Assembly (NCBI GenBank): GCA_023249845.1
Contig: JAHFBW010000002.1
Span: 1-50,657 of the forward strand
Direction of reading: 5' to 3'
Source: Candidatus Eiseniibacteriota bacterium
GTDB taxonomy: Bacteria; Eisenbacteria; RBG-16-71-46
DNA length: 50,657 nt
Shown here: positions 45,085 to 46,428 of the stretch, piece after piece
How the letters are laid out: each line of letters begins with the position of its first letter
Numbering within the stretch: the stretch's first letter is position 1
Program-made: the position numbers and the translations under genes
Notes under the pieces: generated by a model
The model's input: only the letters and a program-made list of their open reading frames with translations
Database searches by the model: none
Told to the model about the DNA's origin: nothing

Positions 45085-46428
45085 ATGAGACCACGTCGTC
45101 GCCGCCCCCGCGGCATGCGCCCACAGGAGCCGCCGCAGTCGGGCGCCGCCCCCGAAGGAACACCGTACGACCCCCCCGCCAGCCCTTACGAGGCTGGCCC
45201 TCCCGCCGACTACTCGGCGCCGCCCGGAGGCGGTCCCCCGATGGGTGACCCCTCGATACCTCCGGCCGCGCCCGCAGGCGGCTACTCCGGACCCAATGGC
45301 ACACCGGGTCCCGGCTACGACCGCGGTTACGGACGACAGGGTGGCGGACGCCGCCGCCGTCGCCGGCCGCGCAACGGCCGTCAGCAAGGTGGTGAAATGC
45401 AGCAACAGCAAGGCAGTGGTTACCAGCAGCCCTTCAACCAGGGCGGAGGCCGGCGCGGACGCCGGCGAAGAGACGGTGGTGGAGGCGGCGGCGATCATCG
45501 CGGCCGGCCGCAGCGCCCCGGGCTCGAGTTGCTCAAGGAGCTTCAGAACGCCGGCGCCGCGCTGGATCCCACCGAGCGGCTCATCATGGAGCTGCCGGCG
45601 GGCCAGGGCGATCCGCCATACGGCGATCGCATCACCGGGCGCGCGATCGACCTGATCGCCCCCATCGGCCGCGGCCAGCGCGTGTTGCTGGTGGCGCCGC
45701 CGAAGGCCGGCAAGACACGAATCCTGCAGGCCATCGCCGCGTCCGTCGCGCACAATCACCCCGACGTCAAGGTGTACGCGCTGCTCGTGGACGAGCGTCC
45801 CGAGGAGGTCACCGACTTCAAGCGCAACACGCCGGCCGAGGTCATCGCCGCCTCGAGCGACATGAGCGTGGACGAGCACATCGAGACCGCCGAGATCGCC
45901 ATGCAGAAGGTGGCGGCCGAGGTGCTCGCGGGCAAGGACGTCGTGCTGCTGCTCGACTCCATCACGCGTCTCGCGCGGGCCTACAACGCGGCTGCCGGCA
46001 ACGGCGGACGCACGATGTCGGGCGGCCTCGACTCGAACGCCATGCAGTCCCCGCGCCAGATCTTCGGTGCGGCCCGAAAGATCGAGAACGGCGGCTCGCT
46101 CACGATCATCGGGACCGCGCTCGTGGACACCGGCTCGCGCATGGACCAGATCATCTTCGAGGAGTTCAAGGGCACCGGAAACTCCGAGCTGTTCCTGTCG
46201 CGCGAGCTGGCGGAACGCCGCATCTACCCCGCGATCGACATCCCGAAGAGCGGCACGCGCAAGGAGGAGAAGCTGATCGCGCCGAACCAGCTCTCCACGT
46301 TCCAGGCGCTGCGCCGCATCCTGGTGCAGATGCCGCCGCAGGAGGCCATGCTGAAGCTGGTGGATCGCCTGGGCCGCACCAAGACGAACGAGGAGTTCTT
46401 CAACCTCGTGCGCGTGGGCGACAGCTAG
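45085..46428 (+). CDS. rho: transcription termination factor Rho with a non-canonical low-complexity N-terminus
   Basis: A GGAAGGAAA RBS precedes the start. Canonical motifs are [40 protein letters not shown] and [15 protein letters not shown]. The first ~155-160 aa are P/G/R/Q-rich. Confidence 0.9.
   Translation: [447 protein letters not shown]

What the first reader, a model, noticed from the sequence alone, without database searches (positions are those of the whole stretch)
45085..45560. Rho factor with its canonical N-terminal RNA-binding domain replaced by an Arg/Gly/Pro/Gln-rich low-complexity region
The C-terminal ~290 residues are textbook Rho ([92 protein letters not shown]). The connector [11 protein letters not shown] aligns to E. 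coli LTPLHANSRLRME. Upstream of it I find no helical Rho_N bundle. I also find no cold-shock-like OB fold with its GFGFLR / DIYVSPSQIRRF primary-site motifs. Instead, about 155-160 residues read [17 protein letters not shown]...[66 protein letters not shown]. No other frame in 44563-45560 encodes OB-fold motifs, so a simple frameshift is unlikely. R/G/N/Q-rich N-terminal insertions are known in some actinobacterial, Bacteroidota and clostridial Rho proteins. As far as I know, those add to the OB fold rather than replace it. I infer that primary-site (rut) recognition here would depend on a nonspecific, possibly condensate-forming, Arg-rich disordered tail.
Basis: partly seen in the sequence, partly recalled or inferred. 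Interest (0 to 1): 0.68.

Follow-up and report, generated by a model that had tools for sequence, protein, structure and literature searches.

The report
Rho factor without its RNA-binding domain
This uncultured soil or groundwater bacterium (Candidatus Eisenbacteria) encodes a well-conserved Rho transcription-termination motor whose usual RNA-recognition domain is replaced by a disordered tail with three conserved arginine clusters, so the gene offers a way to test whether Rho can work without its classical RNA-binding site.

Summary
Window 45085-46428 (+) encodes a 447-aa Rho homologue. Residues ~160-447 are a complete Rho ATPase/translocase. They pass the NCBIfam Rho equivalog cut-off, are 53% identical to E. 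coli Rho, and keep all catalytic, Q-loop, R-loop and bicyclomycin-pocket residues. Residues 1-144 have no Rho_N and no OB fold in any frame. AlphaFold2 predicts them disordered. They are 70% Gly/Pro/Arg/Gln with net charge +16.

This is not an artefact. About 33 species-level Candidatus Eisenbacteria genomes, including a complete 4.16-Mb chromosome, and more than 120 protein clusters share the architecture, the start MRPRRRR, an invariant internal Arg5-8 run encoded by mixed synonymous codons, a third RRGRRRR cluster, and conserved synteny.

OB-less Rho proteins with short basic N-termini also occur in Omnitrophota, Rokubacteria, Hydrogenedentes, Planctomycetota and cultured marine Gammaproteobacteria. 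They are all annotated 'Rho' and, as far as I found, none has been characterised. A 2024 survey set ATPase-only sequences aside as 'Rho-like'.

Best explanation: a hexameric Rho motor whose six Arg-cluster tails act as a non-specific RNA-capturing corona in place of the primary binding site. I could not test whether it is the only Rho in these genomes. I rate it a new variant of a known kind.

The parts
45085..46428 (+). rho homologue, 447 aa plus stop codon (OB-less, Arg-cluster type)
   Evidence: (NF006886 385.8 bits against a cut-off of 315, model positions 153-412 only)
45085..45516 (+). N-terminal intrinsically disordered region, residues 1-144, in place of Rho_N and the OB fold
   Evidence: No Pfam hit. 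No hit to my own OB or Rho_N HMMs. AF2 gives mostly pLDDT<50 and no secondary structure. Composition and charge. dN/dS about 0.2-0.5 in the nearer pairs listed (median 0.51 over all pairs), so it is coding and under constraint.
45088..45123 (+). Arg cluster 1, residues 2-13 ([12 protein letters not shown])
   Evidence: All 32 full-length orthologues were identified by an MR[P/S/Q]RRRR start; its Arg codons vary synonymously between genomes. Consensus conservation 80-99%.
45124..45324 (+). Pro/Ala/Gly/Tyr/acidic spacer, residues 14-80, net charge -6, variable in length between orthologues
45349..45381 (+). Arg cluster 2, residues 89-99 ([11 protein letters not shown]). R90-R94 are invariant in 65 homologues.
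   Evidence: Invariant columns. 31 of 32 orthologues have an R5-R8 run encoded by mixed CGC/CGG/CGT/CGA/AGG/AGA codons.
45382..45444 (+). Gln-rich spacer, residues 100-120
45451..45471 (+). Arg cluster 3, residues 123-129 (RRGRRRR). A poly-Gly stretch and RGRPQRP follow, up to residue 145.
   Evidence: R124 and R126 are nearly invariant and R144 is invariant
45520..45624 (+). Clade-specific helix ([11 protein letters not shown], residues 146-156) and connector ([23 protein letters not shown]). Homology to the E. coli connector starts at residue 160.
   Evidence: AF2 helix 145-155. Invariant G146, L147, L150, D161, P162, P177, P178. Alignment start.
45625..46413 (+). RecA-type ATPase/translocase core, residues 181-443, equivalent to E. 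coli Rho 155-417
   Evidence: Gap-free alignment to PDB 1pv4_A at 304 bits. Walker A K207/K210/T211, E237, R238, Walker B D291, Arg finger R392, Q-loop R309/S312 and R-loop R352 are all invariant in the clade.
45050..45074 (+). Conserved leader hairpin whose 3' arm overlaps the first GG of the Shine-Dalgarno sequence (GGAAGGA, 45073-45079)
   Evidence: The stem is kept while the loop length varies. Covariation evidence is weak.
44604..44629 (+). Intrinsic-terminator-like hairpin plus T-run after the upstream kinase gene. It implies that rho has its own promoter and a leader of up to about 450 nt.

Best explanation
This is the Rho-family RNA translocase of a high-GC lineage of Candidatus Eisenbacteria. 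The whole canonical N-terminal domain (helix bundle plus OB-fold primary RNA-binding site) has been replaced by a disordered tail of about 145 residues.

Shown here: the motor half is intact and highly conserved. The tail has three conserved poly-arginine clusters separated by variable Pro/acidic and Gln-rich spacers, and it is under purifying selection.

Inferred: the protein forms the usual hexameric ring. The six tails (18 Arg clusters, about +96 net charge per hexamer) form a flexible, high-avidity, sequence-non-specific corona on the face where the OB folds normally sit. The corona captures nascent RNA, which in a 70% GC genome is likely to be structured, and hands it to the conserved Q-loop/R-loop channel. 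ATP-driven 5'-to-3' translocation then dislodges RNA polymerase. On this reading, rut-site selection rests on RNA accessibility and electrostatics rather than on YC-dinucleotide recognition. The blocky charge pattern may additionally allow self-association or condensates.
For: Motor identity. NF006886 scores 385.8 bits against a cut-off of 315. The alignment to E. coli Rho 155-417 has no gaps. K181, K184, T185, E211, R212, D265, S266, R269, T323, G337, R366 and L208 are identical; K283R, T286S and K326R are conservative changes. All of these are invariant in 65 homologues.

Absence of the N-domain.. The +-10 kb flanks (where the contigs allow) of the Eisenbacteria loci L001-L037 also lack it.

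Disorder..

Selection on the tail. R90-R94 are invariant. The Arg runs are encoded by mixed synonymous codons in 31 of 32 genomes. In the pairs listed, dN/dS of the tail is about 0.2-0.6 against about 0.1-0.2 for the core; medians over all pairs are 0.51 and 0.20.

Clade-wide, single-locus conservation. About 33 GTDB species are involved, including the complete chromosome OY970342.1. Synteny NadE / OMPs / B3_4 / giant GreA-like / Cob_adeno_trans / rho holds down to 77% identity, and the Rho core is the most conserved protein of the block.

Precedent. The disordered insertion domain of M. tuberculosis Rho is needed for more than 97% of Rut substrates and is modelled as an RNA-capturing corona (PMC13650167). 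Arg-rich insertions are proposed or shown to raise the RNA affinity of Rho (PMC11347177).
Against: There is no biochemical evidence. In every characterised Rho the disordered region acts together with the OB fold, not instead of it. In E. coli, deleting even the first 27 residues abolishes RNA binding (PMC11347177).

OB-less Rho proteins in marine Gammaproteobacteria almost certainly coexist with a canonical Rho. That rests on general knowledge and was not tested here. An accessory role is therefore a realistic alternative.

MAGs labelled Eisenbacteria from another lineage carry an OB-containing short Rho (L079, L085). I could not scan whole Eisenbacteria genomes for a second rho.

The Gly/Pro/Arg/Ala bias is also what GC-rich codons favour, so part of the composition may be mutational.
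Confidence: 0.5

Rival explanations
1. It is an accessory Rho paralogue. The genome also encodes an OB-containing Rho that does the bulk termination. The OB-less protein then either joins hetero-hexamers or has a specialised job, such as R-loop or RNA remodelling, stress-dependent condensates, or a regulatory or dominant-negative role.
For: OB-less Rho proteins of 314-325 aa are common in cultured Glaciecola, Paraglaciecola, Colwellia, Shewanella and Spartinivicinus. By general knowledge these organisms have a canonical rho. OB-less and OB-containing forms both occur in Planctomycetota. Two rho genes and possible hetero-hexamers are discussed for 116 genomes (PMC11347177). In a neighbour-joining tree the OB-less clades sit in one region, though with only 25% bootstrap support.
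Against: The Eisenbacteria clade is separate from the gammaproteobacterial/Omnitrophota clade; each has 100% bootstrap support. No second Rho relative appeared for any of the ~33 Eisenbacteria genomes among the 80 best hits of the genome scan, although that scan could only detect [8 protein letters not shown]-type motifs. No contig-length match links the OB-containing family to known Eisenbacteria contigs. The Rho core is the slowest-evolving gene of its conserved synteny block.
Confidence: 0.3
2. Primary RNA recognition or recruitment is supplied in trans. A separately encoded OB, cold-shock or Rho_N protein, or NusG, NusA or RNA polymerase itself, docks on the Arg-rich tail. The tail would then be a protein-interaction module rather than the RNA binder.
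For: 'Rho-like' proteins made of only the N-terminal plus RNA-binding domains exist in some Actinomycetota (PMC11347177). A giant GreA-family factor is always encoded 1-3 genes upstream of rho in this clade.
Against: No OB or Rho_N coding sequence lies within the 50.6-kb window or within the +-10 kb flanks (where the contigs allow) of the Eisenbacteria loci. Poly-Arg runs are classic nucleic-acid binders. Nothing points to a specific partner.
Confidence: 0.1
3. It is an artefact or a decaying gene: a frameshift, misassembly or pseudogene hides a canonical N-domain, or a very divergent OB fold sits within the first 160 residues.
For: GC3 of the tail (0.66-0.74) is lower than in the core (0.90-0.98).
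Against: More than 30 independent assemblies, including a closed chromosome, show the same open frame, start codon and Arg clusters. No OB signal appears in any frame. dN/dS is below 1 in the tail. AF2 finds no fold. Only 6 hydrophobic aliphatic or aromatic residues (I/L/V/F/M/W) occur in 145 aa, too few for an OB core.
Confidence: 0.02

Closest known systems
Canonical Rho (E. coli type; 'Type 1' of Moreira et al. 2024)
   Same: The ATPase/translocase core has 53% identity. Walker A/B, catalytic Glu, Arg finger, Q-loop, R-loop and bicyclomycin-pocket residues are conserved. The connector is recognisable from E. coli residue 139 onward.
   Different: The protein lacks residues equivalent to E. 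coli 1-138, that is, the Rho_N helix bundle and the OB-fold primary binding site with its YC-recognition motifs. Its score is below the TIGR00767 cut-off (378.8 against 509.45).
Rho with Arg/Gly/Asp/Asn/Gln-rich disordered insertion or initial regions ('Type 2': M. tuberculosis, M. luteus, Bacteroides)
   Same: Both have a disordered, Arg-rich, compositionally biased N-terminal region on the outer face of the ring, with the same motif vocabulary (Pro/Ala-rich, Q/N-rich, RxR) (PMC11347177). In M. tuberculosis the insertion domain is required to engage structured GC-rich RNA (PMC13650167). Both organisms have high-GC genomes.
   Different: In all described Type 2 proteins the disordered region is added to an intact OB fold. 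Here it is fused directly to the connector and ATPase. The 2024 survey observed no additional region of more than 25 aa directly before the ATPase domain.
Short Rho lacking only the Rho_N bundle ('Group B'/'Type 4'; NCBIfam NF041509 'Rho, short form')
   Same: The N-terminus is reduced. The connector motif V/L-D-P-x-E-R is shared with the L079-type short Rho.
   Different: Those proteins keep the OB fold (PF07497). This protein scores 345.8 bits against the NF041509 cut-off of 628, and only on model positions 100-358.
OB-less 'Rho-like' ATPase-only proteins (Omnitrophota, Rokubacteria/Methylomirabilota, Hydrogenedentes, some Planctomycetota, marine Gammaproteobacteria)
   Same: They share the overall plan: a basic, low-complexity N-terminal tail fused directly to the connector and a Rho ATPase that passes NF006886. 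The 'DP' connector motif is shared with most of them, but not with the Rokubacteria group.
   Different: Their tails are short (about 30-70 aa), rich in His/Lys/Gln-Gly or Arg, and lack the three-cluster layout. They form separate, well-supported clades. At least the gammaproteobacterial ones are presumably paralogues. As far as I could find, none has been studied experimentally.

Membership tests
Transcription termination factor Rho (sequence family, NCBIfam NF006886 / TIGR00767) | Whole-protein score above the curated cut-off | tested here: inconclusive
   NF006886 scores 385.8 against a cut-off of 315, so it is met. TIGR00767 scores 378.8 against 509.45, so it is not met. Both align only to model positions ~139/153-413.
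Transcription termination factor Rho | RecA-type ATPase with Walker A/B, catalytic Glu, Arg valve and Arg finger | tested here: met
   K207, K210, T211, E237, R238, D291 and R392 are identical to E. coli K181, K184, T185, E211, R212, D265 and R366, and invariant in 65 homologues.
Transcription termination factor Rho | Secondary (translocation) RNA site: Q-loop and R-loop | tested here: met
   The Q-loop has R309 and S312 (E. coli K283 and T286). The R-loop has R352 (E. coli K326). These are conservative changes and invariant in the clade.
Transcription termination factor Rho | OB-fold primary RNA-binding domain (Pfam PF07497 Rho_RNA_bind) | tested here: not met
   No hit at E<=10. My own OB HMM gives no hit in any frame of the window. 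AF2 shows no fold in residues 1-144.
Transcription termination factor Rho | N-terminal helix bundle (Pfam PF07498 Rho_N) | tested here: not met
Transcription termination factor Rho | Homohexameric ring, RNA-dependent ATPase, and termination activity with RNA polymerase and NusG | not testable with these tools
   This needs biochemistry or cryo-EM.
'Functional Rho' Types 1-4 of Moreira et al. 2024 (PMC11347177) | [quoted passage not shown] | tested here: not met
   Only the ATPase is present. By that paper's definition the protein is 'Rho-like'.
Rho short form, paralog_Rho2 (NCBIfam NF041509) | Score of at least 628 bits over the full 360-position model, OB fold included | tested here: not met
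   345.8 bits, on model positions 100-358 only.
FliI / type III secretion / F1 ATPases (other PF00006 families) | Best match to those equivalogs | tested here: not met
   At most 98.5 bits against cut-offs of 380-750, while the Rho models score about 380 bits.
Anti-phage defence ATPases (PADLOC) | Significant match to a defence-system model | tested here: not met
   Only a 22.6-bit match around the P-loop region to mad8.

The most novel reading that the evidence does not exclude
The OB-less, Arg-cluster protein is the only Rho in these Eisenbacteria and carries out genome-wide transcription termination with no primary binding site. A disordered poly-arginine corona would then be sufficient to load RNA into a Rho ring. 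The large, unstudied set of OB-less 'Rho-like' proteins in several other phyla would represent a second, PBS-independent mode of Rho function.
Probability: 0.4. Interest if true: 0.75.

Novelty: new variant of a known kind. Interest (0 to 1): 0.58.

Why it matters
Current models of Rho-dependent termination start with the OB-fold primary site binding YC-rich rut RNA. The same N-terminal domain also makes the contacts with NusA and RNA polymerase seen in pre-termination complexes.

Here the motor is kept under strong constraint across a clade of the phylum while that domain is swapped for a conserved arginine-cluster tail. This is a natural experiment on three questions: what the primary site is really needed for, whether a disordered region alone can select and load substrates, and how termination adapts to GC-rich, structured transcripts.

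The result also exposes a broad, consistently mis-annotated group of OB-less 'Rho' proteins. Some occur in cultivable Gammaproteobacteria and could be studied directly.

If a canonical Rho turns out to coexist in these genomes, the finding reduces to a new conserved paralogue family. That would still be uncharacterised, but less surprising.

Tried and rejected
1. Frameshift or hidden N-domain. Six-frame search of the whole window with OB and Rho_N HMMs built from 129 Rho representatives gave only noise, E>2.

2. Split or adjacent N-domain gene. The same HMMs on 85 fetched loci (1.26 Mb) hit only OB folds inside the rho ORFs of other phyla. None of these hits was in the Eisenbacteria loci L001-L037; the one locus from a MAG labelled Eisenbacteria with an OB fold is L079, from a different lineage.

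3. Assembly artefact. Rejected on the basis of more than 30 independent assemblies.

4. Membership of the NCBIfam 'Rho short form' paralogue. The score is far below the cut-off.

5. Defence-system ATPase. PADLOC shows only P-loop-level similarity.

6. Known RNA element in the 520-nt upstream region. There were no Rfam hits at the gathering score, and none at E<=1.

7. Second rho via a contig-length 'fingerprint'. I searched the OB-containing short-Rho family (query L079) and looked for hits on contigs of 4,162,540, 1,711,199, 601,753 or 528,442 bp. None appeared in the top 120. This is uninformative rather than negative.

8. Look-up of the window's own protein in the contig index. It is not on record.

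9. Monophyly of all OB-less Rho proteins. A neighbour-joining tree with 100 bootstraps supports three separate clades at 100%, but the deep grouping at only 25%. No ML tool was available.

10. Covariation support for the leader hairpin. RNAalifold recovered only 5 pairs, one of them with compensatory change.

11. Supplementary text of Moreira et al. on 'Rho-like' sequences. It is not held in the library.
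Full report
OBSERVATION.

The window has 70.0% GC. The ORF at 45085-46428 (+) encodes 447 aa. Its ATG is preceded by GGAAGGA at 45073-45079.

Pfam finds only PF00006 (ATP-synt_ab) even at E<=10, with no Rho_N and no Rho_RNA_bind. 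NCBIfam identifies the protein as Rho: NF006886 scores 385.8 bits against a cut-off of 315. However, it matches only model positions 153-412 of 413. TIGR00767 (378.8 against 509.45) and the 'Rho, short form' paralogue model NF041509 (345.8 against 628) are not reached.

PDB Rho chains align without gaps from E. coli residue 155 to 417, corresponding to residues 181-443 here. A local alignment starts at E. coli residue 139, which corresponds to residue 160, and gives 147/279 identities. I recalled the E. coli sequence from memory; one search checks it for residues 155-417.

All mechanistically important residues are kept. Walker A is K207/K210/T211. The catalytic Glu and Arg valve are E237/R238. 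Walker B is D291. The Arg finger is R392. The bicyclomycin-pocket residues S292, R295, T349, G363 and L234 are conserved. The Q-loop K283 and T286 become R309 and S312, and the R-loop K326 becomes R352.

IS THE N-DOMAIN REALLY MISSING?

I built HMMs for the OB fold and for Rho_N from the 129 OB-containing Rho sequences among the 269 proteins fetched by then (mostly from the 150 closest 50%-identity cluster representatives). Searched with all filters off against every stop-free segment of all six frames of the 50.6-kb window, they gave nothing better than E=2. There is therefore no frameshifted remnant in 44563-45560 and no separate N-domain gene nearby.

AlphaFold2 with a 65-sequence alignment predicts no secondary structure, and mostly pLDDT below 50, for residues 1-144. 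The first helix is 145-155, and a normal Rho C-terminal fold follows.

Residues 1-145 are 24% Gly, 19% Pro, 18% Arg and 9% Gln. They contain no Lys and only six I/L/V/F/M/W residues. Net charge is +16, in blocks of +7/-6/+9/-1/+7.

GC3 in the tail is 0.66-0.74, against 0.90-0.98 in the core. This fits its codon repertoire.

IS IT REAL AND MAINTAINED?

The 120 best database homologues all carry PF00006 only. Where they are named, most come from Candidatus Eisenbacteria MAGs.

A scan of one genome per GTDB species found about 33 species-level genomes with a 72-98% identical core. These include nzgw208 (98% over the full length), a 1.71-Mb contig, and the closed 4.16-Mb chromosome OY970342.1.

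From these loci I extracted 32 full-length genes, using the start ATG-AGA-CCN-CGN-CGN... (MR[P/S/Q]RRRR) as the search criterion. 31 of them have an internal run of 5-8 Arg encoded by a mix of CGC, CGG, CGT, CGA, AGG and AGA. Selection therefore acts on the amino acid, not on a DNA repeat.

In a 65-sequence alignment R90-R94 are invariant. R124 and R126 are nearly invariant, R144 is invariant, and the following GLE[I/L]LK helix is conserved. The spacers between the clusters vary in length and sequence.

Pairwise dN/dS has a median of 0.20 for the core and 0.51 for the tail. For the closer pairs the values are about 0.10-0.12 and about 0.17-0.19.

Gene order is conserved down to the most divergent members: NadE, two outer-membrane-type proteins, B3_4, a giant GreA-family protein, Cob_adeno_trans and rho. 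The Rho core is the most conserved protein of the block.

These facts exclude an assembly artefact and a pseudogene.

WIDER CONTEXT, WHICH CHANGES THE NOVELTY CALL.

All Eisenbacteria proteins collapse into one 50%-identity cluster. The next relatives are only 52-58% identical, the same as generic Rho proteins.

Among those relatives and among the genome-scan hits, other Rho proteins also lack the OB fold and begin with a short basic, low-complexity tail:
- Candidatus Hydrogenedentes (P0125, 365 aa).
- Omnitrophota and some Planctomycetota.
- Rokubacteria/Methylomirabilota and Binatia, with GQ-repeat tails.
- P0124, P0167 and P0201.
- The cultured gammaproteobacterium Glaciecola punicea.

All those tested pass NF006886 with truncated coverage.

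A search with the Glaciecola protein shows the type is common in Glaciecola, Paraglaciecola, Colwellia, Shewanella benthica, Spartinivicinus and other marine Gammaproteobacteria. Where a source gives a name, it is 'transcription termination factor Rho', and none of the hits carries the Rho RNA-binding domain in Pfam. By general knowledge, not tested here, these organisms also have a canonical rho, so there the OB-less form is a paralogue.

A neighbour-joining tree with 100 bootstraps gives three solid OB-less clades:
- Eisenbacteria (100%), possibly with P0124 (76%) and Hydrogenedentes (60%).
- Omnitrophota, Planctomycetota and Glaciecola (100%).
- Rokubacteria and Binatia (100%).
The union of these clades has only 25% support. 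One ancient family and repeated OB loss therefore cannot be told apart.

LITERATURE.

The 2024 survey of 2,730 RefSeq genomes defines functional Rho as RNA-binding plus ATPase domains. It sorts such proteins into four types, all with an OB fold. It reports no additional region of more than 25 aa directly before the ATPase domain, and it moves single-domain sequences to a supplementary 'Rho-like' category (PMC11347177).

I found no paper on Rho lacking the RNA-binding domain, and none on Rho in Eisenbacteria.

MECHANISM.

Shown: the motor is intact and conserved, with a translocation channel. The tail is conserved and disordered, and its Arg clusters are under amino-acid-level selection.

Inferred: the protein forms a hexamer whose six tails form a polycationic corona. 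The corona captures RNA and feeds it to the Q-loop/R-loop channel, replacing YC-specific primary-site binding.

The best precedent is M. tuberculosis Rho. Its disordered insertion domain is needed for more than 97% of Rut substrates and for binding structured GC-rich RNA. It is modelled as a 'high-avidity corona' that stays disordered on binding (PMC13650167). Arg-rich 'RxR', Pro/Ala-rich and Q/N-rich motifs are typical of such regions (PMC11347177), and the Eisenbacteria tail has the same vocabulary. The difference is that in all studied cases the corona hands RNA to an OB fold, and here there is none.

Canonical intrinsic-terminator-like sites are not enriched in the window: 12 found against about 14 expected in 40 kb. 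This is compatible with a need for factor-dependent termination, but it is weak evidence.

THE OPEN POINT.

I could not test whether these genomes also contain an OB-bearing rho.

Indirect evidence is as follows.
- No second relative appeared for any Eisenbacteria genome among the 80 best hits. However, only [8 protein letters not shown]-type motifs would have been caught.
- Two MAGs labelled Eisenbacteria (L079, L085) carry an OB-plus-ATPase short Rho. L079 has 58% GC and no synteny with the window, so they appear to belong to a different lineage. They belong to a family spread over Chloroflexota, Nitrospirota and Zixibacteria, and they did not show the OB-less gene.

I put sole-Rho at roughly 0.4-0.5 and accessory paralogue at about 0.3.

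VERDICT.

The finding is real and clade-wide. It is a clear departure from every experimentally described Rho architecture. It belongs, however, to a larger class of OB-less Rho proteins that databases already hold and that remain unstudied. I therefore rate it a new variant of a known kind.

Interest is moderate to high. It would be higher if this is the only Rho in the genome. It would be lower if a canonical copy coexists.

Noticed in passing
window 36581-39928 (-): A giant GreA/GreB-family protein. The ORF is 1115 aa; the likely start is near 'MPVRDAL', giving about 910 aa. The GreA_GreB_N and GreA_GreB domains occupy only the last ~150 residues. Orthologues of 900-903 aa also carry PF27167 HTH_GRAD. 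The gene lies 1-3 genes upstream of rho in most Eisenbacteria loci examined (absent from L002), so two RNA-polymerase-directed factors are kept in one neighbourhood.
   Followed up: partly
window 42310-44562 (+) and 46434-47399 (-): rho is flanked by a Ser/Thr protein kinase with TPR repeats and by a convergent PP2C phosphatase. The phosphatase coding region (stop codon included) ends 5 nt from that of rho. Ser/Thr kinases also sit next to or near rho in L001-L004. Whether the Ser/Thr/Tyr-containing tail is phosphorylated is unknown, and the adjacency may be chance.
   Followed up: no
window 45005-45038 and 45050-45074 (+): Two hairpins lie in the rho leader. The second (CCGGCGC...GCGCCGG) overlaps the first GG of the Shine-Dalgarno sequence. 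It is conserved in most orthologous leaders, and its stem is kept although L009 and L010 have much larger loops. This could be a translational or autoregulatory element. The shuffle z-score is only -1.84 and RNAalifold found only one compensatory pair.
   Followed up: partly
L076 9872-10846 (Glaciecola punicea ACAM 611) and P0416-P0535: A conserved OB-less Rho paralogue of 314-325 aa with a Lys-rich tail of about 45 aa is widespread in cultured marine Gammaproteobacteria (Glaciecola, Paraglaciecola, Colwellia, Shewanella benthica, Spartinivicinus). It is annotated simply as Rho. The neighbouring genes show no obvious operon partner. This is a tractable model for the whole class.
   Followed up: partly
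L049, L053, L055, L059-L062, L066, L071, L073 (Rokubacteria/Methylomirabilota-type loci): These are OB-less Rho proteins with N-termini of about 40-60 aa, of the form LSRRSRHRRHSGNRPPQGQGQGQG...PRGPMPPRP. The (GQ)n repeat number differs between genomes. Several of the MAGs carry other taxon labels (Dormibacterota, Limnocylindria, Nitrosotalea), which probably reflects mis-binning.
   Followed up: no
window 1-40000: Canonical intrinsic-terminator-like hairpins with T-runs are not enriched: 2 found against 6.9 expected in 1-20 kb, and 10 against 6.9 in 20-40 kb. A few convincing ones sit at gene ends (7015-7046, 44604-44619).
   Followed up: no
L079 9446-10843 and L085 10001-11101: MAGs labelled Candidatus Eisenbacteria from another study (CSMAG series) encode a short Rho of about 366 aa with an OB fold but no Rho_N. 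L079 has about 58% GC and no synteny with the window. The family is 65-71% identical across Chloroflexota, Nitrospirota and Zixibacteria, which is unusually uniform across phyla.
   Followed up: partly
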